In this document: positions 13 to 8,902 of the stretch, piece after piece
How the letters are laid out: each line of letters begins with the position of its first letter
Position numbering within the stretch: the stretch's first letter is position 1
Origin: Candidatus Iainarchaeum sp.
GTDB lineage: Archaea > Iainarchaeota > Iainarchaeia > Iainarchaeales > CSSED10-239
Direction of reading: 5' to 3'
NCBI GenBank assembly: GCA_937968065.1
Contig: CALBUD010000080.1
Coordinates: 1-9,142 of the forward strand
DNA: 9,142 nucleotides
Made by a program: the position numbers and the translations under genes
The notes under the pieces: generated by a model
Seen by the model: the letters and a program-made list of their open reading frames with translations, nothing else
What the model was told of the DNA's origin: nothing
Databases searched by the model: none

Positions 13-579
13 CTAAGCGCAAATATTCGCCAAAGAGTTTAGAAAATTCCTTTTAAAAGAAGAAATAATGATATCAATTTTCTTTTCATTTTCTGGATAC
101 AACTGAATTATGCAAATTCCTTCTTTTTTTAGAATTGTTTTTAAATCATTTCCAATTTTTTTAATAATATTTTTAATTTCGATTTCTTTTTTGTTTGGTA
201 AAAGCCATTGAAGAGCAGAGATTGAAAGAATAAGATCATATTTTTCAGAAATCTTATTAAGTTCTTGAAAACCACCAATCTTAACATTTAGTTTTTTAAT
301 TTTTGCAAGTTTTATCATTTCTTTAGAAGGGTCAATACCTTTTAGAGAAGAATAACCTAAAGACTTTAAAAACTCTAAAGAAAAACCAGTACCACAACCA
401 ATATCTAAAATATCTATTATTTTATTTTCAGATAAAGGTTTTGATAAATTCAGCGCAATTTTTGTAAGTTCTATTTGTGTCTTTCTCATTCCTGAGCTTT
501 GATTATATCTATTTGCTTCTTCTTCTGTATAAAAATCATTTGGATCTGTAAATTTTTGTTCAGGAGTTTCTTGCGTCAT
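13..579 (-). CDS. Class I SAM-dependent methyltransferase, Bud23/WBSCR22-like (putative small-subunit rRNA methyltransferase)
   Basis: 188-aa ORF with its TAG stop at 13-15. It has SAM motif I, ILDIGCGTGFS. The blocks FYTEEEANRYNQSSGMRKTQ, LSISALQWL and IQLYPEN line up with Bud23/WBSCR22 blocks as I recall them (PPE.FY..EA.KY...SR...IQ; ISISA.QWL; LQLYPEN). The C-terminus looks short compared with the eukaryotic methyltransferase domain. Confidence 0.8.
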   Translation of the reverse strand: MTQETPEQKFTDPNDFYTEEEANRYNQSSGMRKTQIELTKIALNLSKPLSENKIIDILDIGCGTGFSLEFLKSLGYSSLKGIDPSKEMIKLAKIKKLNVKIGGFQELNKISEKYDLILSISALQWLLPNKKEIEIKNIIKKIGNDLKTILKKEGICIIQLYPENEKKIDIIISSFKRNFLNSLANICA

Positions 580-611
580 TCTTTTTTAACTCTTTTTCTT
601 TTTTTAAAAAA

Positions 612-1670
612 TTATTTTTGAACATGAATTGTTTGTGTTGGAAATGCAAACTCAATTTTTTCTTTTTCAAATTCTTTTTTAATTGTTAGATTAATTTTAT
701 CTTTTATCTCAAGATAATATTTATAATCATTTGCAACAATCCAATAAATAATTCTTATATTTAAAGAAAAATCTCCAAAAGATTCAAAAGAAACTAAGAA
801 AGAATCTTGCTCTACAAATTTATTTGATTTTAATATTTTTATAATAATTTGTTTTGCTTTTTCAAGTTTTTTAATATTTGTTGAGTAAGTTACACCAATT
901 GTAAAATTTTCTCTTCTAGCTCTTCTTGCAGAAATATTTTCAACAAAATTTGAAGATAAATGTTTGTTTGGAACAACAACTAAAGTATTATCAAAGGTTC
1001 TTATCTTTGTAGATCTAATTCCAATTTCTTCAATAGAACCAAGACCATCTGATGTTTTTAAAACATCACCAATTTTAAATGGTTTTTCAAGAAAAATAAC
1101 AACACCTGATAAAAAATTTTCAAAAATATCTTTTGATGCTAAAGCAATTGCAAGACCACCAATACCAAGCCCTGCAAGTAAAGCACTGATATTATATCCA
1201 AGGTTTGATAGTACTAAAAGAACTGCTATTACAAAAAATATAATTCTGATTAAAGCTTTTAAAACTGGGATTAACTGATCATCATATTTTGATTCTGTTT
1301 TTTTAGCATATGGTTCAAAATATTCTTCTATTAAACCTATACAAAACTTAATAATAAATAAAGTAACTGCTAAAACATATACTAAAAAAGAAGCCTGTTT
1401 TATAAAATTTATCCACCAATCAGAGACTACTAAATATTTAAAACCAATATTAAAAAAAATAGCAACAATTACAAGAACAAAAGGAATTGGTTTTGCTAAA
1501 ATTTTTGCAATAATATCATCTATTTTTGTTTTTGTGTATCTTGTAAGTTTATATAAAACATGCTTACTTATAAAAACAACAATCCAACTTACAACAAAAC
1601 CAATTACTATAAATAAAAAAAACCAAAAATAATTGTTTAAAGTGTTTCCAAATAATATAAAATCAGCCAT
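612..1670 (-). CDS. MscS-family small-conductance mechanosensitive ion channel
   Basis: 352-aa ORF. The N-terminal half is hydrophobic with several TM helices and carries two TK.K.DD / TESKYDD motifs. The pore-helix and beta-domain signature GLGIGGLAIALASKDIFENFLSGVVIFLEKPFKIGDV...IEEIGIRSTKIRTFDNTLVVVPN is typical of the MscS family. Confidence 0.93.
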   Translation of the reverse strand: MADFILFGNTLNNYFWFFLFIVIGFVVSWIVVFISKHVLYKLTRYTKTKIDDIIAKILAKPIPFVLVIVAIFFNIGFKYLVVSDWWINFIKQASFLVYVLAVTLFIIKFCIGLIEEYFEPYAKKTESKYDDQLIPVLKALIRIIFFVIAVLLVLSNLGYNISALLAGLGIGGLAIALASKDIFENFLSGVVIFLEKPFKIGDVLKTSDGLGSIEEIGIRSTKIRTFDNTLVVVPNKHLSSNFVENISARRARRENFTIGVTYSTNIKKLEKAKQIIIKILKSNKFVEQDSFLVSFESFGDFSLNIRIIYWIVANDYKYYLEIKDKINLTIKKEFEKEKIEFAFPTQTIHVQK

Positions 1671-1802: not shown

Positions 1803-2510
1803 ATGGATAAAAAAACAATTATTGAACTTAAAAATGTCTCTAAAATATATAAAATGGGAGAAGTTGAAGTTAAAGCTGTAAATGATGTCTCCCTTAAAAT
1901 TTATGAAAAAGAATTTGTAGCTATTATGGGTGCTTCAGGATCAGGAAAGTCAACAATGATGCATCTTATTGGAGCTTTAGATCTTCCTACAAAAGGAGAT
2001 ATTTATATAAATAAACAAAAATTAACAAAATTTACAGAAAATGAACTTGCAAAATTAAGAGGTAAAACAATTGGTTTTATTTTTCAAGATTTTAATCTAA
2101 TTTCTACATTAACAGCATTTGAAAATGTAAGACTTCCTTCTCTTTTTCAAGATGAAAATAATGAAGAAGAATTAGATAAAAGATGTAAAAACCTTTTAGA
2201 AATTGTTGGACTTAAAGATAGAGTTAATCACAACCCTAGTGAGCTTTCAGGTGGACAACAACAAAGAGTTGCAATTGCAAGAGCACTTTCAAACAATCCA
2301 CAAATAATTCTTGGAGATGAACCTACTGGTGCTCTTGATTCTAAATCTTCTGTTGAAATTATATCTCTTTTAAAAAAATTAAATAAAGATGGTAAAACAA
2401 TAATTCTTATAACACATGATCCTAATGTTGCAAATAATGCAAGAAGAATAATTACTTTAAAAGATGGAAAAATAATTGAAGATAAGATAAATAGAAAAGA
2501 AAAAATATAA
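1803..2510 (+). CDS. ABC transporter ATP-binding protein, MacB/LolD/SalX-type (COG1136-like)
   Basis: 235 aa. Walker A GASGSGKST (nt 1929-1955), Q-loop FIFQDFNL, ABC signature LSGGQQQRVAIARAL, Walker B IILGDEPTGALD and H-loop ILITHD are all present. The N-terminal IELKNVSKIYKMGEVEVKAVNDVSL is typical of the MacB/LolD subfamily. Confidence 0.96.
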   Translation: MDKKTIIELKNVSKIYKMGEVEVKAVNDVSLKIYEKEFVAIMGASGSGKSTMMHLIGALDLPTKGDIYINKQKLTKFTENELAKLRGKTIGFIFQDFNLISTLTAFENVRLPSLFQDENNEEELDKRCKNLLEIVGLKDRVNHNPSELSGGQQQRVAIARALSNNPQIILGDEPTGALDSKSSVEIISLLKKLNKDGKTIILITHDPNVANNARRIITLKDGKIIEDKINRKEKI

Positions 2511-2546: not shown

Positions 2547-3737
2547 ATGAAACAAACACTTCCATTTATTTTAATGAATCTTAAAAGAAGAAAATTAAGA
2601 AGTTATTTAACAATTATTGGAATAATTGTAGGTGTTGTTGCAATTGTATCTTTAATGTCACTTTCAGAAGGACTTAAAACAGGAATAACTGATGAATTTG
2701 CAAAAACAGGTGCACAAAAAATAACAATAACTTCAAAATATATACAGTTTGGACAAGGATCAGATTCAGGACTTACAACTGATGATGTTAGAGAAATTGA
2801 AAAAATACAAGAAATTGAATTTGCAACAGGATATTTAAGTTCACAAACATCATCTAAATTCTCAAGAGAAGAAAGATTTGTAACTATTACTTCTTTTGAA
2901 ACAAAAAACTATGAAAAAATATTATTTTTAGAAGGAAAAGAGATATTAAGAGGAAAAATAATAGATAATGATAAAGCAAAAGAAGTTGTAATTGGTTTTG
3001 ATTTATTTAATAGTTCTAATTTTTTTGGAAAAGAAATTAAGATTGGAGATACCATAGAAATTTCAAATCAAAATTTTAAAATTATTGGAGTTTTAAAAGA
3101 TACAGGAAATAGAAGTGCTGATAGAGTCATGTATATTTCCATGGACAACATGAGAGAAATTACAAACTCAAATGATATAGAAGTTGATAGTATTTATGCA
3201 GTTGTTAAAGATAATAGTGATGTTGAAGAAGCGGGAAAAAAAATAGAAGACAGACTTGAAAGATTTAGAAAAGATAATGATTTTGTAGTAACTACTGCAA
3301 AAAAAGCATTAGAAGATAGAGAAGAAACATTAAAGGTAGTTTCAATTATTGTTATTGGAATTGCTGCAATTTCTTTGTTAGTTGGAGGAATAGGTATTCT
3401 TAATTCTATGTATACTTCTGTTCTTGAAAGAAAAAAAGAAATTGGAATCATGAAAGCAATTGGGGCTAGAAGAGAAGATATTTTAAAAATATTTTTATTA
3501 GAATCTGGAATTATTGGGCTTATTGGAGGAATAATAGGAACAATAGGTGGATTTTTAATATCTTTTATAGTATATATTATAGGAAGATTTGCAGAAGTTG
3601 AAATTGCAATTTCATTTGACATATCAATAATTTTAATAGCTCTTAGCTTTTCATTTTTACTAGGATTATTGGCAGGATTTATGCCAGCATACCAAGCTTC
3701 AAAACAACAAGCAATTGATTCTTTAAGAGAAGAATAA
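2547..3737 (+). CDS. ABC transporter permease 1, MacB/FtsX-type (COG0577-like)
   Basis: 396 aa. The N-terminal NLKRRKLRSYLTIIGIIVGVVAIVSL forms TM1. A hydrophilic extracytoplasmic domain of about 220 aa follows, then three C-terminal TM helices with the FtsX-domain loop NSMYTSVLERKKEIGIMKAIGARREDI. An SD-like AGGA sits at 2537-2540. Confidence 0.93.
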   Translation: MKQTLPFILMNLKRRKLRSYLTIIGIIVGVVAIVSLMSLSEGLKTGITDEFAKTGAQKITITSKYIQFGQGSDSGLTTDDVREIEKIQEIEFATGYLSSQTSSKFSREERFVTITSFETKNYEKILFLEGKEILRGKIIDNDKAKEVVIGFDLFNSSNFFGKEIKIGDTIEISNQNFKIIGVLKDTGNRSADRVMYISMDNMREITNSNDIEVDSIYAVVKDNSDVEEAGKKIEDRLERFRKDNDFVVTTAKKALEDREETLKVVSIIVIGIAAISLLVGGIGILNSMYTSVLERKKEIGIMKAIGARREDILKIFLLESGIIGLIGGIIGTIGGFLISFIVYIIGRFAEVEIAISFDISIILIALSFSFLLGLLAGFMPAYQASKQQAIDSLREE

Positions 3738-3740
3738 AAT

Positions 3741-4394
3741 ATGAAACCAAAATACGGAAGAAGTAGAGAACCTGTTAAAGGTTTTGAAAAAATTTTAGAA
3801 ACAAAAAAAGAAAGTTGGCCAAGCTTTGGTCAAGAAAATAAATATTTCCAAGTTTATTTTGTAAAATTTAAAGAAAAACCAATAGAATTTTTAAAAACAA
3901 AAAAAAATCCAAAAATAATGGTTCTTGGTGCTGGAGAAGGTAAAGATCTAAAATTATTAAAAAATGAATTTAGAGATGCAAAAATTGATGTTTTTTCTTT
4001 AACTAAATCTTTAAATAAAGATATTAAAAGAAATGTTATAAATAGAGATCATACAATTTTTGTAGCTCTTGAAAGTTTAGATTCAAGATTTAAAAAACAT
4101 AGACAATTAATAGAAAAATTAAAAAATAAATATGATTTAGTAATTGCTCCTTTAAGTGTAGGGATATATACTAATTATCCTGTGTTTAATATTTTTAGAT
4201 CTTCTATGATGCTTAGAAAAAAAGGACAATGTTTTATAGAGATATACACTAGAGAAAATGTTGAAAAAATATTTAATAAGTTTGTAGAAGTATATAATCG
4301 TCAACAAAAAACAAAATATTCTTTTGAAATTAAAAAAATAAATCAAAATGCAGATAATACAAGAAGTTATTATCAAATAATTAGAACAAATTAA
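3741..4394 (+). CDS. Hypothetical cytoplasmic protein with a possible Rossmann / class I methyltransferase-like fold
   Basis: 217 aa with no signal peptide or TM segment. Its start lies 3 nt after the permease 1 stop. The Gly-rich motif KIMVLGAGEGKDLKLL (nt 3912-3959) is followed by KIDVFSL, YDLVIAPLSVGIY and LRKKGQCFIEIY, in the order expected for beta1/beta2/beta4/beta5 of a SAM- or nucleotide-binding Rossmann fold. I recognise no family. I am fairly confident it is a real gene, but confidence in the fold call is low. Confidence 0.6.
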   Translation: MKPKYGRSREPVKGFEKILETKKESWPSFGQENKYFQVYFVKFKEKPIEFLKTKKNPKIMVLGAGEGKDLKLLKNEFRDAKIDVFSLTKSLNKDIKRNVINRDHTIFVALESLDSRFKKHRQLIEKLKNKYDLVIAPLSVGIYTNYPVFNIFRSSMMLRKKGQCFIEIYTRENVEKIFNKFVEVYNRQQKTKYSFEIKKINQNADNTRSYYQIIRTN

Positions 4395-4411
4395 AAAAAA
4401 GGTGAAAAAAT

Positions 4412-5653
4412 ATGAAAATAAATAGAATTTTAATTGCTTTTTTTGCATTAATTTTGATATTAAATCCAATTAATGCACAAACAACAGATTATGATATAAT
4501 TAATCTAAATGCAGATACTTATAATTATACTCCAACACCTGTTATTTCTGGTGAAGAGTTTGAAATATGGATACAACTTACAAATAAAAGTAATCTTCCT
4601 GCAGAAAATATTGAATATTTTCTAGAAGTTGATTATCCATTTATTTTAGTTTCTGAAAATGAAGAAAAAATAAATAAAATTGAACCATATCAATCAAAAA
4701 TAATAAAATATAAATTAAAAACATATGGAGATACCTTAACAGGTACTTATGATCTTGATTTTAGATATACAAGAGAAGGTATTTTTGTATATAATGTTAA
4801 AAAATATACAATTGATGTTAAAGGAAAAAATGCAATCATAGAAGTTATTTCTTCAAATATTAAAAACACAAATATTGGAAGTAGTTCTGAAATAATATTA
4901 AATCTTAAAAATCTTGGACAAAAAGATTCAAAAGATATTTTTATAACTTTAGGAGATTCTTTAGATGAAACTATAAAAGTTATTGGTCTTAAAACACAGT
5001 ATCTTGAAAAAATAAATGTTAATGAACAAAAAGAAGTTACCTTTAAGTTAGATATTTCAAAAAATATAATTAACTCAAGTTATACTCTTCCAATAACAAT
5101 TAACTATTCAGATGTTGATAGAGAATATACTATTGAAAGAAACATTGGTTTTAGAATAGAAGATGAACCAAAAATGATTCTAAATATTGTAAATATTGGA
5201 AAAGATTTTAAAATAAAACCTAATTCTTTAGAAAAAATTTCATTAGAGATATATAATATTGGAAATGTAGATACAGAAGTTTCATATATAATTGTTGAAG
5301 GAGAAGGAATTAACCAAACACAAGAATTTATAGGATCTATTGAAAAAGACAATTATGATAGATTAGAAATTGATTTAAAAACAAAAGATATTAAAGAAAA
5401 AGAAACAAACATAACTGTAAATCTTTTCTATAAAGATAGTTATTTACAAGAACAGAAAATAACAAAAACAATTACTGTTGAAACTGATTTTACAACAAAT
5501 GGACAAAAAGCAAATAGCCTTATAATGTCTTTGTTTGGAATAATTGGTTTTATTGTAGGACTTGCATTGTTTATCTTAATTGCAAGATGGCTTATAAAAA
5601 TATTAATAAAACCGGCATATAAAGTTATTTTAAATATTTTTAAGAAAAAATAA
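4412..5653 (+). CDS. Secreted, C-terminally membrane-anchored surface protein with three CARDB/COG1361-like beta-sandwich modules
   Basis: 413 aa. GGTGA SD at 4401-4405. Signal peptide MKINRILIAFFALILILNPINA|Q. Three modules of about 110 aa (aa 24-138, 139-252, 253-359) each carry the pattern G..(E/S).I.L.L.N.G/S ... charged beta strand ... Y.L.I.I.Y, for example SEIILNLKNLGQKDSKDIFITLG and EKISLEIYNIGNVDTEVSYIIVEG. The C-terminal TM helix SLIMSLFGIIGFIVGLALFILIA (nt 5516-5584) is followed by a basic tail. There are six N-x-S/T sequons. Confidence 0.7.
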   Translation: MKINRILIAFFALILILNPINAQTTDYDIINLNADTYNYTPTPVISGEEFEIWIQLTNKSNLPAENIEYFLEVDYPFILVSENEEKINKIEPYQSKIIKYKLKTYGDTLTGTYDLDFRYTREGIFVYNVKKYTIDVKGKNAIIEVISSNIKNTNIGSSSEIILNLKNLGQKDSKDIFITLGDSLDETIKVIGLKTQYLEKINVNEQKEVTFKLDISKNIINSSYTLPITINYSDVDREYTIERNIGFRIEDEPKMILNIVNIGKDFKIKPNSLEKISLEIYNIGNVDTEVSYIIVEGEGINQTQEFIGSIEKDNYDRLEIDLKTKDIKEKETNITVNLFYKDSYLQEQKITKTITVETDFTTNGQKANSLIMSLFGIIGFIVGLALFILIARWLIKILIKPAYKVILNIFKKK

Positions 5654-5674: not shown

Positions 5675-6904
5675 ATGAAAAACATGAATAAAAAATATAA
5701 ACATTTAGTAGATTTAACTATTAAAAACATATATAGAAGAAAACTAAGATCAATTCTTACAATCATTGCTGTAGTTATAGGTATTGCAACAATTGTATCT
5801 TTATTTTTAATTAGTGATGGGTTATTTAATTATGTTGAAGATGCTTTTATGACAATGGGAATTAACACTATTTTTATTTTTCCTATTAGTTTTCAAGGAG
5901 GACCGTCACAATCAATTGGAAGAATTTCTGAAGAGATAAAAATAACTGAAAATGATTTAAAAATAATTGAAAGGATAAATGAAGTTGATTATGCAGTTGG
6001 TTTTTCATTTAGAACTGGAAAAATAGAATTTAAAAATGAAGAGTTATTTCAATTTGTAATATTTATTGATTCAAAAGAAGTTGATAAAACCTTTGAAATA
6101 ATGAATATAGAACTAAGAGAAGGAAAAACATTTCAAGGAAAAGAAGGAAGTAATGTTTTAATAGGGCCATATATTGCTGATAACTTTTTTAAAGAACCTG
6201 TAAAGGTGGGACAAAAAATAAAAATACAAGATAAAGATTTTAAGGTTATAGGTATACTTGAAACTGTTGGAAACATACAAGACGATTCACAAGTGTACAT
6301 TACAAGAAAAAGTGCAGAAGAAATATTTACTATTGGAGATACTTTAGATCAAATATTTGTAAGTGTTAAAAAAGAATATGATCCTTTAATTGTAAAAGAA
6401 GAAATTGAAAAAAGACTTGAAAGAGAACATGGAAAAGATAAATTTTTTATAATTACTGCACAGCAAGTATTAACAATGATTAAATCAGTTATTGGACTTT
6501 TAAAAGTTATTTTAATATCAATTGGATTGATTTCTTTAATTGTTGGAAGTATTGGAATCATGAACTCTATTTATACTTCTGTTATTGAAAGAACTAAAGA
6601 AATTGGTATATTAAAATCATTAGGTGCAAAAAAAGAAGATATTTATTTTATATTTACTTTAGAATCTGTTATTTTATCAATTATTGGTGGGATTATTGGC
6701 CTTGGACTTGGAATATTTATTTCAAAAGCTGTTGAATATTATGTTGCAAGTCAAGGTTTCTTAACTCTTAAAATAATTGTAACTTGGCAAATAATTGTTC
6801 TTGCTATTATTCTTTCAATAATTATTGGTATTGTATCAGGACTACTTCCAGCAAATAAAGCATCAAAAATGAATGTTGTTGAAGCTTTAAGAAAAGTTGT
6901 ATAA
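5675..6904 (+). CDS. ABC transporter permease 2, MacB/FtsX-type, paralog of permease 1
   Basis: 409 aa; an alternative start exists at ATG 5684. The architecture matches permease 1: NIYRRKLRSILTIIAVVIGIATIVSL as TM1, a large extracytoplasmic domain, then the NSIYTSVIERTKEIGILKSLGAKKEDI loop plus three TM helices. A 35-nt block at 6572-6606 matches 3411-3445 at 32/35 positions. Confidence 0.93.
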   Translation: MKNMNKKYKHLVDLTIKNIYRRKLRSILTIIAVVIGIATIVSLFLISDGLFNYVEDAFMTMGINTIFIFPISFQGGPSQSIGRISEEIKITENDLKIIERINEVDYAVGFSFRTGKIEFKNEELFQFVIFIDSKEVDKTFEIMNIELREGKTFQGKEGSNVLIGPYIADNFFKEPVKVGQKIKIQDKDFKVIGILETVGNIQDDSQVYITRKSAEEIFTIGDTLDQIFVSVKKEYDPLIVKEEIEKRLEREHGKDKFFIITAQQVLTMIKSVIGLLKVILISIGLISLIVGSIGIMNSIYTSVIERTKEIGILKSLGAKKEDIYFIFTLESVILSIIGGIIGLGLGIFISKAVEYYVASQGFLTLKIIVTWQIIVLAIILSIIIGIVSGLLPANKASKMNVVEALRKVV

Positions 6905-6974
6905 GTTTGTTTTAGAAACTCTTTTAAAATTATTGATTATAAATATATCTTATATATTTAAAAAAGAAAAAAAT

Positions 6975-8126
6975 ATGATTGATGAAAAAATTATTGAAAT
7001 TATTAATAATCTTAAAAATAAAAGATTAACTGATGTTGAGATTACAGATATTCTTCTCGAAAATAATTATAAAATAGATGAAATTAAAGAAAATTTACAT
7101 GAATATAATAGAAAACATGGACTTGTTGATGAAGACTATCTTGAAGAATATTATAAACTTCAAGAAAATGTTAAAAAAATGAAATATTTTGAAAAAAAAA
7201 AGATGGCAAAAAATAAAACTAAGTCTATTAAAAAAACCAAAAAAACAAATAAGATATTCTATGTTATTTTAATAATTCTTATTTTAGCAATATTAATTAT
7301 GGGTTACTTATATTTAGAACAAACAGAATTTGATTTTGATTTTTTAAAAAATAAAGAAGTTGTGGATAATAATATTATAAATCTAAACCAAGATCTAAAT
7401 GTAGATAATAACACAAATCAAGAAAATGAAAATCCACCCTTAGTAGATGAAAATGCATTTATTCCAGATGAAAATATCTATCTTCCAGATGACAGTAATT
7501 CAGAAGAAGAAAACGATATTGAGGCTCTAACAAATCAAGAATTTTTAATTGAATTATCTTCTTATCAAAATCTTTTAAGAACAAAAGAATTTTTTAATAT
7601 TAATATTTCTGAAGAATATATTATCTTAGGAGATGTTTATTTTGAAGATGAAAATATATTTGATTTAAACTTAGTAATTATGTATATTAGTGATAATAAT
7701 CTTGAAAAACAAGAATTTCATAATCTTTCTTTAAATAAAGTTGAAAAATATAATGAGATTGTTTTAAAATCTTTTAAAGATTATAATTTTTTAGAAGATC
7801 AAGAATTATTTAATACTTTAGAATATCAAGAGGTTCCTGATTCTCAGAAATATAGATATTATTTATTAAAAATGATTTTACAAGAAGCTAACTTAAGAGA
7901 GATTTATTCTTCAGAACTATTAAAATTATCTTCAGTAATTTTAAATACAGATTACAAATTTAGTAATATTAATTTAGAATATGCTATTGAAGAAAATATT
8001 GAAAATAAAAATATATTTATTATGAATTTTTTAAATGATCTTGAGATAATACAGACAACAATAACTGATTTTAATACTAATGAAAAAAACCTTATTATTC
8101 AAAATTTTAATGAGATAATCAATTGA
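6975..8126 (+). CDS. Hypothetical single-pass (type II) membrane protein with an acidic N/D/E-rich linker and an unknown ectodomain
   Basis: I prefer ATG 6975 (383 aa) over the TTG at 6897 used in the ORF track. A small helical N-terminal domain (KIIEIINNLKNKRLTDVEITDILLENNYKIDEIKENL) comes first, then a Lys-rich stretch KKKMAKNKTKSIKKTKKTNK. This is followed by the TM helix IFYVILIILILAILIMGYLYL, a low-complexity acidic linker, and a Cys-free domain of about 200 aa. I recognise no family. ATG 7203 is another possible start. Confidence 0.7.
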   Translation: MIDEKIIEIINNLKNKRLTDVEITDILLENNYKIDEIKENLHEYNRKHGLVDEDYLEEYYKLQENVKKMKYFEKKKMAKNKTKSIKKTKKTNKIFYVILIILILAILIMGYLYLEQTEFDFDFLKNKEVVDNNIINLNQDLNVDNNTNQENENPPLVDENAFIPDENIYLPDDSNSEEENDIEALTNQEFLIELSSYQNLLRTKEFFNINISEEYIILGDVYFEDENIFDLNLVIMYISDNNLEKQEFHNLSLNKVEKYNEIVLKSFKDYNFLEDQELFNTLEYQEVPDSQKYRYYLLKMILQEANLREIYSSELLKLSSVILNTDYKFSNINLEYAIEENIENKNIFIMNFLNDLEIIQTTITDFNTNEKNLIIQNFNEIIN

Positions 8127-8202: not shown

Positions 8203-8216
8203 TAAATATAATTTAG

Positions 8217-8289
8217 GCCTCTATAGCTCAGTGGCTAGAGCGGCAGTCTTGTAAACTGTAGGTCGAGGGTTCAAATCCCTCTAGAGGCT
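8217..8289 (+). tRNA. tRNA-Thr (anticodon UGU), 73 nt, no encoded CCA
   Basis: I folded the cloverleaf by hand. Acceptor GCCTCTA/TAGAGGC gives 7 Watson-Crick pairs, with U8. D arm is GCTC-AGTGGCTA-GAGC. Anticodon arm is GCAGT-CTTGTAA-ACTGT, with TGT at positions 34-36. The variable loop is AGGTC, the T arm is GAGGG-TTCAAAT-CCCTC, and the discriminator is T at 8289. The next bases are TCTTTC, so CCA is not encoded. Confidence 0.93.
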
Positions 8290-8372
8290 TCTTTCTATAA
8301 GTTAAAAGCCCTTTTTCTAAAAAACAAAGATTTAAAATTAGTTTATAACTATAATATATTAGGTGAAATAAA

Positions 8373-8576
8373 ATGCAAATAGAAATAACAAAAGAAGTAG
8401 ATACAAAACTTAAAAAAATAAGTTCAGTATCTGGTCTTGATAGAAAAAAAATTGTTACAAAAGCAATAGATTATTATTTATTGGTTTTAGACCAAGAATT
8501 AAAATTAAAAAATGAATTTGGTTCTCTAGACAAACTTAGTGATGAAGCACTATTAAATTTTGAGGAGAATTTGTAA
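8373..8576 (+). CDS. Ribbon-helix-helix (CopG-like) antitoxin of a MazF/PemK-type toxin-antitoxin pair
   Basis: 67 aa. AGGTGA SD at 8361-8366. N-terminal MQIEITKEVDTKLKKISSVSGLDRKKIVTKAIDYYL fits a beta-alpha-alpha RHH layout, and the acidic C-terminal tail is LSDEALLNFEENL. Its stop overlaps the toxin ATG by 1 nt (TAATG at 8574-8578). Confidence 0.75.
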   Translation: MQIEITKEVDTKLKKISSVSGLDRKKIVTKAIDYYLLVLDQELKLKNEFGSLDKLSDEALLNFEENL

Positions 8577-8902
8577 TGTTTGATGTTGGAGATGTTTGTT
8601 TAATGGAACTACCATCATCAGATGGTCATGAACAAACAGGCCAAAGACCATGTTTAATTATTTCTGAAATGGAAGCAAACACGCTTTTAGTTGTCCCCTT
8701 TACCACTAATCTAAGAGCTATAAAATATTTAAGTTCTATACAAATAGAACCCTCTTCTTTAAATGGACTTGATAATACCTCGATCGCCTTAGTTTTTCAA
8801 TTAAGAGCAATTGATGTAAAAAGACTAATAAAAAAAATTGGAGTCTTAGAAGAAGAATATCTAAAAGATGTCAAATTAATTTTATCTAAAAAAATATTAT
8901 GA
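8576..8902 (+). CDS. mazF: MazF/PemK-family endoribonuclease toxin
   Basis: 108 aa. GAGGAG SD at 8562-8567. GDVCLMELPSSDGHEQTGQRPCLIIS...LLVVPFTTN matches the MazF/PemK core (GD..wv...p..G.EQ.G.RP.vvls...v.vvP.Tt). Its size and its position after a small antitoxin gene are typical. Confidence 0.9.
   Translation: MFDVGDVCLMELPSSDGHEQTGQRPCLIISEMEANTLLVVPFTTNLRAIKYLSSIQIEPSSLNGLDNTSIALVFQLRAIDVKRLIKKIGVLEEEYLKDVKLILSKKIL

What the first reader, a model, noticed from the sequence alone, without database searches (positions are those of the whole stretch)
4412..5653. Triple CARDB/COG1361-like beta-sandwich surface protein encoded between the two permeases
Seen: a Sec-type signal peptide with a likely cleavage site INA|Q. 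Three modules of about 110 aa repeat a strand pattern (I.L.L.N.G....., Y.L.I.I.Y). A single C-terminal TM anchor is followed by a basic tail, and there are six N-x-S/T sequons (NYT, NKS, NSS, NYS, NQT, NIT). There is no PGF-CTERM-like sorting motif; the anchor reads SLFGIIGFIVGLALFILIA. Established: CARDB-type Ig-like modules are common in archaeal envelope proteins. Inference: three tandem Ig-like modules tethered to the membrane would form a rod roughly 10 nm long. That would fit a spacer or stalk reaching from the permease ectodomains toward the S-layer or a host cell. Its position inside a transporter operon argues for a dedicated partnership rather than a generic envelope protein.
Basis: partly seen in the sequence, partly recalled or inferred. 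Interest (0 to 1): 0.7.

Follow-up and report, generated by a model that had tools for sequence, protein, structure and literature searches.

The report
Ig-repeat partner of archaeal ABC exporter
This gene encodes a membrane-anchored protein made of three Ig-like (CARDB) domains that is always encoded inside a MacB-type ABC pump operon in DPANN archaea, so it is probably an outer-face subunit of that pump; the family is already catalogued (COG1361 'S-layer family') but I found no paper on its function.

Summary
The ORF is real (4412-5653, +, 413 aa, GGTGA Shine-Dalgarno 6 nt upstream). The described anatomy holds:
- a short, cleavable-type signal peptide;
- three homologous beta-sandwich modules of about 105 aa (profile-profile P 5e-7 to 3e-3; AlphaFold2 pLDDT 86);
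- one C-terminal TM helix with a basic tail.

The six N-x-S/T sequons are no more than chance.

The protein belongs to a very large family (5,189 clusters at 50% identity). NCBI names members 'COG1361 S-layer family protein'. Orthologs pass Pfam CARDB, although this sequence alone does not.

In all 22 close loci (Iainarchaeota/Forterrea-like) and 7 of 7 distant loci, the gene lies inside a MacB-type ABC cassette: an ATPase plus one or two MacB_PCD/FtsX permeases. Gene order is permuted and stop/start codons often overlap. The 'dedicated partner' reading is therefore supported. The '10-nm stalk towards the S-layer or host' reading is untested.

Best explanation: a type-I bitopic accessory subunit of a heterodimeric type VII ABC mechanotransmission machine. 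Long haloarchaeal relatives pair with MMPL/RND exporters instead (3 of 3), which echoes bacterial periplasmic adaptors.

Verdict: known family with uncharacterised function; new member of a known kind; moderate interest.

The parts
1803..2510 (+). MacB/LolD-type ABC ATPase (235 aa), first gene of the cassette
   Evidence: Pfam ABC_tran E=1.2e-34. Best NCBIfam matches are the MacB NBD (4.3e-78) and LolD (3.6e-72).
2547..3737 (+). Permease P1 (396 aa), MacB-type: TM1, extracytoplasmic core domain, then 3 TM
   Evidence: Pfam MacB_PCD 3.7e-29 and FtsX 1e-21, both above the gathering score. 36% identical to P2.
3741..4394 (+). ORF217: divergent class-I SAM-methyltransferase-like cytoplasmic protein. 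A variable insertion, not a core part of the cassette.
   Evidence: No Pfam or PDB sequence hit. AlphaFold2 pLDDT 81.4, pTM 0.82. Foldseek hits UbiG, Bud23 and MnmM at E about 1e-8. Its position varies among loci, or it is absent.
4401..4405 (+). Shine-Dalgarno-like GGTGA, 6 nt upstream of the target's ATG
   Evidence: Sequence read. It is the only gene of the cassette with such a motif in the 20 nt upstream.
4412..4477 (+). Target aa 1-22: Sec-type signal peptide (n-region MKINR, 12-residue h-region, c-region NPINA|Q)
   Evidence: Hydropathy. Ala at -1 in most orthologs by eye. pLDDT below 50 at aa 19-27. Cleavage itself is inferred.
4505..4822 (+). Target module 1 (aa 32-137), CARDB-like beta-sandwich. 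The most conserved module (YxPxPxxxG, N58, YPF motifs).
4838..5155 (+). Target module 2 (aa 143-248), CARDB-like beta-sandwich. Site of the sub-threshold Pfam CARDB hit (aa 146-228).
5174..5485 (+). Target module 3 (aa 255-358), CARDB-like beta-sandwich, nearest the membrane
5519..5650 (+). Target aa 370-413: single TM helix (370-392) plus a conserved basic cytoplasmic tail (RWLIKILIKPAYKVILNIFKKK)
   Evidence: Hydropathy 2.74. Helix 364-412. Entropy is 1.39 bits for the TM and 1.49 for the tail, against 2.23 for aa 1-22 (signal peptide). W393, P401 and A402 are at least 90% conserved.
5675..6904 (+). Permease P2 (409 aa), MacB-type paralog of P1
   Evidence: Pfam MacB_PCD 9e-28 and FtsX 6.1e-22. 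P1 and P2 are separate orthologous lines in all close loci.
6975..8126 (+). ORF409 (likely start ATG 6975, 383 aa): small conserved cytoplasmic N-domain, one TM, and a lineage-specific Asn/Asp/Glu-rich ectodomain. Follows P2 in the closest relatives; membership of the module is uncertain.
   Evidence: Homologs of 143-161 aa directly after Perm2 in L001 and L004-L007, beginning at the residue equivalent to M27. No family hit.

Best explanation
The gene encodes a secreted, type-I bitopic membrane protein. It has three tandem CARDB-type Ig-like modules outside the cell, one C-terminal TM helix and a short basic cytoplasmic tail.

I propose it is a dedicated accessory subunit of a heterodimeric type VII (MacB/Lol/FtsX-like) ABC machine built from the flanking permeases P1 and P2 and the upstream ATPase.

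Proposed mechanism:
1. ATP binding and hydrolysis by the NBD dimer is transmitted through the permease stalk helices to their extracytoplasmic core domains. This 'mechanotransmission' is established for bacterial MacB and is only inferred here.
2. The triple-Ig protein is held beside the permeases by its conserved TM helix and tail. It supplies the extracytoplasmic partner on which that movement acts.
3. That partner is most likely a scaffold or chute that receives or guides a substrate expelled from the outer face of the membrane. It would be a functional stand-in for the membrane-fusion/adaptor protein that archaea lack.

Shown: the fold, topology signals, repeat homology, family membership and conserved operon linkage.
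Inferred: physical association, adaptor role, substrate.
For: Anatomy:
- Three homologous modules.
- Confident all-beta model plus a C-terminal helix.
- Ig-array fold matches.
- Signal-peptide-like N-terminus and a single C-terminal TM.

Family:
- 5,189 representatives, mostly 400-450 aa and full length.
- At least 107 of 123 have the same signal peptide / C-terminal TM architecture.

Linkage:
- ATPase-P1-(+/-ORF217)-target-P2 in all 22 close loci. 17 are complete, 5 are cut by contig ends, and none contradicts the pattern.
- In 7 of 7 distant loci (L023-L027, L029, L032) the order is ATPase-COG1361-permease(-permease). 4-bp stop/start overlaps occur in L024, L025 and L032, and longer overlaps in L026 and L029.
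- Linkage that survives rearrangement and 20-28% sequence identity is the classic signature of functional coupling.

TM is more than an anchor: TM and tail are as constrained as the folded modules, and far more than aa 1-22 (signal peptide).

No HlyD/MFP-type gene appears in any locus.

Long relatives pair with MMPL/RND exporters in 3 of 3 cases. This parallels bacterial adaptors, which serve both ABC and RND pumps (PMC8277102, seen).

Mechanotransmission in MacB: PMC8277102.
Against: - There is no direct evidence of physical contact. Co-folding could not be run.
- TM and tail conservation holds within the close clade only. Across the wide family, TM sequences and tails diverge.
- CARDB arrays are typical of cargo-like surface proteins, so the protein could be what the pump handles rather than part of it.
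- I did not test how many archaeal MacB-type cassettes lack a COG1361 gene.
- Inter-module geometry is uncertain (pTM 0.53).
- The substrate is unknown.
Confidence: 0.55

Rival explanations
1. The protein is cargo, not a subunit. It would be an envelope or S-layer-associated protein whose release from the membrane, or assembly, is driven by the adjacent MacB-type pump, in the way LolCDE extracts lipoproteins.
For: - Relatives carry the name 'S-layer family'.
- CARDB arrays are common in surface proteins (PMC5498576).
- Long multi-repeat relatives exist.
- Tight operon linkage fits a dedicated pump-cargo pair equally well.
Against: - The TM helix and cytoplasmic tail are as conserved as the folded modules, which is unexpected for a segment that is merely extracted.
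- Size and module number are constant across thousands of clusters.
- There is one copy per cassette.
- COG1361 genes occur in Thermoplasma. PMC10354927 reports that S-layers were seen by microscopy only in Picrophilus, so the 'S-layer' label is not a demonstrated function.
Confidence: 0.2
2. It is a DPANN-specific adhesin or spacer that contacts the host cell or the S-layer. It would be co-transcribed with the pump but act independently.
For: - The closest relatives come from Iainarchaeota/Diapherotrites and Woesearchaeota, which are lineages with small genomes and a predicted symbiotic lifestyle (PMC5905446 abstract).
- Three Ig modules in series could span about 10 nm (inference).
Against: - The protein is highly conserved (55% mean column identity over 37 orthologs, with 21 invariant positions), unlike host-contact proteins.
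- Linkage to the ABC genes persists after gene-order changes.
- Long relatives in free-living haloarchaea show the same pairing logic with an exporter.
Confidence: 0.08
3. It is a generic envelope protein that is adjacent to the transporter genes by chance.
For: Only the single-window view supports this, where any secreted protein could sit in an operon.
Against: 29 of 29 loci show the linkage, across 20-79% identity and two different gene orders.
Confidence: 0.02

Closest known systems
COG1361 'S-layer family protein' / Pfam CARDB (PF07705) repeat proteins of archaea
   Same: - Homologous. Distant full-length relatives are named COG1361 by NCBI (MFH1257009.1, MBS3107415.1, MBS3062663.1) and score 38-54 bits on CARDB.
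- Same architecture: signal peptide, CARDB modules, C-terminal TM.
   Different: - This sequence alone is below the CARDB gathering score, and its own record carries no name.
- The family name implies an S-layer role that has not been shown. What I show is a fixed three-module form tied to MacB-type ABC cassettes.
Bacterial periplasmic adaptor / membrane-fusion proteins (MacA, AcrA; HlyD family)
   Same: - Single-TM-anchored extracytoplasmic partner encoded with a MacB-type pump.
- Both protein classes are found with two unrelated exporter classes (ABC and RND/MMPL) (PMC8277102).
   Different: - No homology. MFPs have an alpha-hairpin, lipoyl, beta-barrel and MP domains with an N-terminal anchor. 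Here there are three Ig-like sandwiches with a C-terminal anchor.
- Archaea have no outer-membrane duct to dock to.
- This is a functional analogy only, and it is untested.
FtsEX with EnvC/PcsB/CwlO, and LolCDE (type VII ABC mechanotransmission systems)
   Same: - The flanking ATPase and permeases have the MacB_PCD + FtsX architecture.
- Two paralogous permeases suggest a LolC/LolE-like heterodimer.
- The work is presumably done outside the membrane on a partner protein (own knowledge; PMC8277102).
   Different: - The partner here is an integral bitopic Ig-repeat protein with no hydrolase or coiled-coil domain.
- The substrate is unknown.
- None of the NCBIfam equivalog cut-offs (LolC/E, FtsX, MacB) is reached.
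LptC in LptB2FGC
   Same: A single-pass protein with an all-beta ectodomain, encoded with and bound to a heterodimeric ABC permease pair, extending the pathway away from the membrane (own knowledge).
   Different: - Different ABC type (VI rather than VII).
- Beta-jellyroll rather than Ig-like fold.
- N-terminal rather than C-terminal anchor.
- No homology.
Integrin alpha-chain leg (thigh/calf domains plus TM), e.g. PDB 3ije_A
   Same: Best-scoring solved architecture of the same overall form: a series of Ig-like sandwiches ending in one TM helix (Foldseek E=1.2e-10).
   Different: - 9% identity and TM-score 0.32.
- It is a generic Ig-array resemblance with no functional implication.

Membership tests
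Pfam CARDB (PF07705) | This sequence alone scores at or above the gathering threshold (22.7 bits) | tested here: not met
   18.6 bits, E=0.0022, aa 146-228 only. No hit at E<=1e-3.
Pfam CARDB (PF07705) | Homology to CARDB shown through orthologs and family relatives | tested here: met
   - 29 of 37 aligned orthologs (26-77% identical) hit CARDB at E<=1e-3, best 1.4e-12.
- Distant relatives score 36-54 bits.
- The three modules are homologous to one another.

The miss for the single sequence reads as a sensitivity limit in a 23% GC genome, not as exclusion from the family.
Pfam CARDB (PF07705) | Ig-like beta-sandwich fold | tested here: met
   The AlphaFold2 model has three all-beta modules, pLDDT 86. 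Foldseek hits are Ig-like arrays, including a DUF11 repeat protein.
COG1361 'S-layer family protein' | Match to the COG1361 model | not testable with these tools
   No COG/CDD library was available. Indirect evidence: relatives found with the family profile at E 2e-72 to 1e-39 carry that NCBI name.
COG1361 'S-layer family protein' | Signal peptide + CARDB-type modules + C-terminal TM anchor | tested here: met
   At least 107 of 123 representatives of 370-470 aa share this architecture.
True S-layer lattice protein | Forms the paracrystalline surface layer | not testable with these tools
Evidence against: COG1361 genes are present in Thermoplasma, and PMC10354927 reports that S-layers were seen by microscopy only in Picrophilus.
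Type VII (MacB/FtsX) ABC system (the operon) | Cytoplasmic NBD of MacB/LolD type | tested here: met
   ABC_tran 1.2e-34; MacB NBD 4.3e-78; LolD 3.6e-72.
Type VII (MacB/FtsX) ABC system (the operon) | Permease with a MacB periplasmic core domain between TM1 and TM2, plus an FtsX C-terminal TM bundle | tested here: met
   Both P1 and P2 are above the gathering score for MacB_PCD and FtsX.
Type VII (MacB/FtsX) ABC system (the operon) | HlyD-type membrane-fusion adaptor (tripartite MacAB-TolC subtype) | tested here: not met
   No HlyD/MFP Pfam family appears on any called gene in the window or in the loci whose called genes carried Pfam annotation.
Membrane-fusion / periplasmic adaptor proteins (HlyD family) | Alpha-hairpin, lipoyl and beta-barrel domains | tested here: not met
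   The model is all-beta Ig-like apart from the two terminal helices (signal peptide and TM), and there is no Pfam hit. This is a functional analogy only, not membership.
PGF-CTERM / archaeosortase substrates | C-terminal PGF motif + TM + basic tail | tested here: not met
   The C-terminus reads SLFGIIGFIVGLALFILIARW..., with no PGF. NCBIfam gives no hit at E<=0.1.
Lipoproteins | Lipobox Cys after the signal peptide | tested here: not met
   The protein contains no cysteine.

The most novel reading that the evidence does not exclude
COG1361-type bitopic CARDB-repeat proteins are the archaeal functional counterpart of bacterial periplasmic adaptor proteins. They would be a non-homologous, Ig-based accessory subunit class that couples exporters with large ectodomains to the archaeal envelope. 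The short three-module form would serve type VII ABC machines, and long multi-repeat forms would serve MMPL/RND pumps.
Probability: 0.25. Interest if true: 0.7.

Novelty: new member of a known kind. Interest (0 to 1): 0.4.

Why it matters
Type VII ABC systems (MacB, LolCDE, FtsEX) do mechanical work outside the membrane. In bacteria they are always understood through their extracytoplasmic partner: MacA/TolC, LolA, or EnvC/PcsB. I found no paper describing such a partner for archaeal systems.

The survey shows that a fixed-size, three-Ig, C-terminally anchored protein travels with these cassettes across very divergent DPANN lineages. It persists even in a genome of only 0.84 Mb. Its long relatives travel with MMPL/RND pumps in haloarchaea.

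This gives a concrete, testable candidate for the missing partner. It also suggests that the 'S-layer family' label on thousands of archaeal genes is misleading.

On the other hand, the domain family, the fold and the transporter type are all known. The association could be read from any gene-neighbourhood resource. This is an annotation and hypothesis gain, not a new kind of system.

Tried and rejected
- **PDB sequence search** with the family profile gave only a spurious Ig+TM match (sodium-channel beta-4, E=0.048).
- **Second homolog search** with a broad profile (A2) was saturated by close relatives and added almost no named organisms.
It was redone with 8 database homologs.
- **Literature searches** on COG1361+ABC, CARDB+ABC+archaea, MacB+archaea+S-layer, type VII ABC+archaea, arCOG+S-layer domain, MMPL+CARDB and MJ0795/MJ0797 found no paper on the linkage.
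- **A lead from memory** could not be checked and is not used as evidence: that the genes flanking the M. jannaschii LolD-like MJ0796 might form the same cassette.
- **Glycosylation** was rejected as a signal. Sequons equal the chance expectation and only one is conserved.
- **Viral fold library** gave generic Ig arrays only.
- **Permease-COG1361 fusion proteins** did not appear among the 150 best representatives, judged only by their TM pattern. No Pfam scan of the long hits was done.
- **Rod length and inter-domain geometry** could not be assessed, because model coordinates were not readable.
Full report
**1. The window**

The window is 9,142 bases at about 23% G+C. It carries, in order:
- a SAM methyltransferase (13-579, -);
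- an MscS channel (612-1670, -);
- on the + strand, a tightly spaced run of genes:
  - a MacB/LolD-type ABC ATPase (1803-2510);
  - a MacB_PCD+FtsX permease, P1 (2547-3737);
  - a 217-aa ORF (3741-4394);
  - the target (4412-5653);
  - a second MacB_PCD+FtsX permease, P2 (5675-6904);
  - a 383-409-aa ORF (6897/6975-8126);
- tRNA-Thr (8216-8291);
- a small ORF plus a PemK/MazF toxin pair (8373-8902).

Gaps inside the run are 36, 3, 17, 21 and -8 nt. The target's ATG is preceded by GGTGA at -11 to -7.

**2. Checking the observation**

- **Signal peptide.** The N-terminus has a 12-residue hydrophobic core followed by NPINA|Q. By eye in alignment A1, most orthologs carry Ala at -1 while its neighbours vary. 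There is no Cys and no twin-Arg. Cleavage is inferred, because SignalP was not available.
- **C-terminal anchor.** It is the only other hydrophobic segment, at aa 370-392 with a hydropathy peak of 2.74. A basic tail follows.
- **Repeats.** The three-fold repeat survives a formal test. Sub-alignments of the three modules match each other in register by hhalign, with P=1.7e-5, 4.7e-7 and 3e-3.
- **Fold.** AlphaFold2 on a 37-sequence alignment gives pLDDT 86.1. The model has three all-beta modules (aa 32-137, 143-248, 255-358) and one long C-terminal helix.
- **Fold matches.** Foldseek finds only arrays of Ig-like sandwiches: HYDIN, integrin alpha legs with their TM, transglutaminase C-terminal domains and alpha-2-macroglobulin MG domains, at E about 1e-10. 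In the viral library the best hit is a DUF11 repeat protein.
- **Sequons.** The six sequons are real but uninformative. Shuffles give 4.6 +/- 1.9. Only N58-K-S is conserved (35 of 37), and N58 is the invariant module-defining Asn that recurs as N167 and N282 outside any sequon.

**3. What family it is**

- Pfam CARDB is sub-threshold for this sequence alone (18.6 against 22.7 bits). It is hit by 29 of 37 orthologs, best E=1.4e-12.
- A profile search of 1.84 billion cluster representatives finds 5,189 relatives at E<=1e-3 and 468 at E<=1e-30. 123 of the best 150 are 370-470 aa, and the listed matches mostly span nearly the whole profile.
- At least 107 of those 123 have the same signal peptide plus C-terminal TM layout.
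- NCBI names the relatives that carry a functional name 'COG1361 S-layer family protein', from Diapherotrites/Iainarchaeum and Woesearchaeota.
- The closest genomes are Iainarchaeota MAGs. They include the complete 0.84-Mb Candidatus Forterrea multitransposorum chromosome, at 68% identity.

The window protein's own record carries no name at all.

**4. Genomic linkage**

This is the decisive evidence.
- **Close loci.** In all 22 loci the order is ATPase-P1-(+/-ORF217)-target-P2. 17 are complete, 5 are cut by contig ends, and none contradicts the pattern. P1 and P2 are 36% identical and form separate orthologous lines.
- **Distant loci.** Relatives at 20-28% identity were sampled in seven independent contexts (L023-L027, L029, L032). 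In all seven the order is ATPase-COG1361-permease, with or without a second permease. Stop/start overlaps of 4 bp occur in L024, L025 and L032, and longer overlaps in L026 and L029.
- **Interpretation.** Linkage that survives both deep divergence and gene rearrangement is strong evidence of functional coupling.
- **ORF217 is not part of the conserved unit.** It lies between P1 and the target in only some loci. Elsewhere it is downstream on the other strand, triplicated (L016), or absent.

**5. Is the TM helix more than an anchor?**

Within the close clade, the TM helix (entropy 1.39 bits) and the tail (1.49 bits) are as constrained as the folded modules (1.35-1.56 bits). They are far more constrained than aa 1-22 (signal peptide, 2.23 bits) or the juxtamembrane linker (2.74 bits). 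W393, P401 and A402 are nearly invariant.

That pattern suggests specific helix-helix or tail contacts. Across the whole family the TM sequence is not conserved. This could reflect co-evolution with the partner or simple drift, so the point is suggestive only.

**6. Mechanism**

MacB-family transporters do not carry substrates across their own membrane. NBD closure is transmitted through the stalk helices to the extracytoplasmic core domains, which do work outside the membrane (mechanotransmission; PMC8277102).

In bacteria that work is always delivered to or through a partner: MacA/TolC, LolA, or EnvC/PcsB (own knowledge and the same review). No HlyD-type adaptor gene occurs in any of the loci examined.

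I therefore propose the following:
- P1 and P2 form a LolC/LolE-like heterodimer energised by two copies of the ATPase.
- The triple-Ig protein is its bitopic accessory subunit, docked by its TM and tail.
- Its Ig modules form the scaffold or chute on which the core domains act.

The fold, topology signals, family and linkage are shown. Physical association, the adaptor role and the substrate are inferred. I rate the 'dedicated functional partner' claim at about 0.8. I rate the specific 'physically bound adaptor-like subunit' claim at about 0.45-0.55.

**7. An unexpected parallel**

The three long relatives I sampled are 1,292-1,510 aa. Two are from cultivated haloarchaea: Haloarcula rubra WP_220619364.1 and Haloarchaeobius baliensis WP_440992201.1. 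Each lies 2-45 nt upstream of an 805-834-aa MMPL/RND exporter on the same strand, with no ABC genes nearby.

One protein class serving both ABC and RND pumps is what bacterial periplasmic adaptors do. This is the basis of the most novel reading: COG1361 proteins as archaeal, non-homologous adaptor analogues. I give it about 0.25.

**8. Rivals**

- **Cargo of the pump (0.2).** This fits the linkage and the surface-protein flavour of CARDB. It fits less well with the conserved TM and tail, the fixed size and the single copy per cassette.
- **Host-contact stalk or adhesin (0.08).** High conservation argues against it, and so does the same pairing logic in free-living haloarchaea.
- **Chance adjacency (0.02).** This is excluded by 29 of 29 loci.

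The '10-nm rod' cannot be judged. pTM is 0.53 and I had no access to model coordinates.

**9. Comparison, novelty and score**

- The protein is a member of a catalogued family (COG1361/CARDB), next to a known transporter type.
- It is not a member of the MFP family, the PGF-CTERM substrates or the lipoproteins. Each was tested and not met.
- Eight searches of the paper library found nothing on the COG1361-ABC or COG1361-MMPL linkage. The linkage would nevertheless be visible in neighbourhood databases, and much subscription literature is not covered.
- One paper notes that COG1361 genes occur in Thermoplasma and that S-layers were seen by microscopy only in Picrophilus. That undercuts the 'S-layer' name (PMC10354927).

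Verdict: new member of a known kind. Interest is about 0.4. The finding gives a clear, testable hypothesis for a missing partner of archaeal type VII ABC systems. It is not a new kind of system.

Noticed in passing
L028:5001-11630; L030:5001-11386; L031:5001-11996: Long COG1361/CARDB relatives (1,380, 1,292 and 1,510 aa; two from cultivated haloarchaea) each sit immediately upstream of an MMPL/RND exporter of 805-834 aa, with no ABC genes nearby. The family therefore pairs with two unrelated exporter classes.
   Followed up: partly
window 3741-4394 (+): ORF217 has no Pfam or PDB sequence match and only 8 database homologs. It folds (pLDDT 81) as a class-I SAM-methyltransferase-like Rossmann domain with an IMxLGAGxGE motif. 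It is a variable insertion: between P1 and the target in some loci, downstream on the opposite strand in others, three tandem copies in L016, and absent elsewhere.
   Followed up: yes
window 6897-8126 (+), likely start 6975: The ORF after P2 has a conserved cytoplasmic N-domain of about 65 aa plus one TM. It shares these with 143-161-aa proteins that follow P2 in the closest relatives (L001, L004-L007). The window copy carries an extra Asn/Asp/Glu-rich C-terminal extension of about 260 aa. It may be a lineage-specific fifth component.
   Followed up: partly
P0116, P0134, P0150, P0158/P0205, P0171, P0172, P0198; and P0118, P0179, P0201: The cytoplasmic tails of distant family members fall into distinct conserved classes. 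One class is a basic '...RWRNLKRIPRKIKIFL' tail. Another has a second TM with a PLDc_N-like segment (PF13396, E=7.7e-6 in P0118). This hints at specific contacts on the cytoplasmic side.
   Followed up: no
window 13-1670 (-): A divergently oriented SAM methyltransferase + MscS channel pair upstream of the ABC cassette is syntenic in many close relatives (L001, L004-L006, L008, L011, L014, L022).
   Followed up: no
window 8216-8291 (+) and 8373-8902 (+): tRNA-Thr(TGT) (Rfam 75.5 bits), followed by a 67-aa ORF that overlaps by 1 nt a PemK/MazF-like toxin (Pfam E=3.9e-22). This is probably a type II toxin-antitoxin pair.
   Followed up: no
L001:12498-13679: A Cas1 gene lies about 3 kb downstream of the cassette in the Forterrea-like 663-kb contig. 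It is not present in the window.
   Followed up: no
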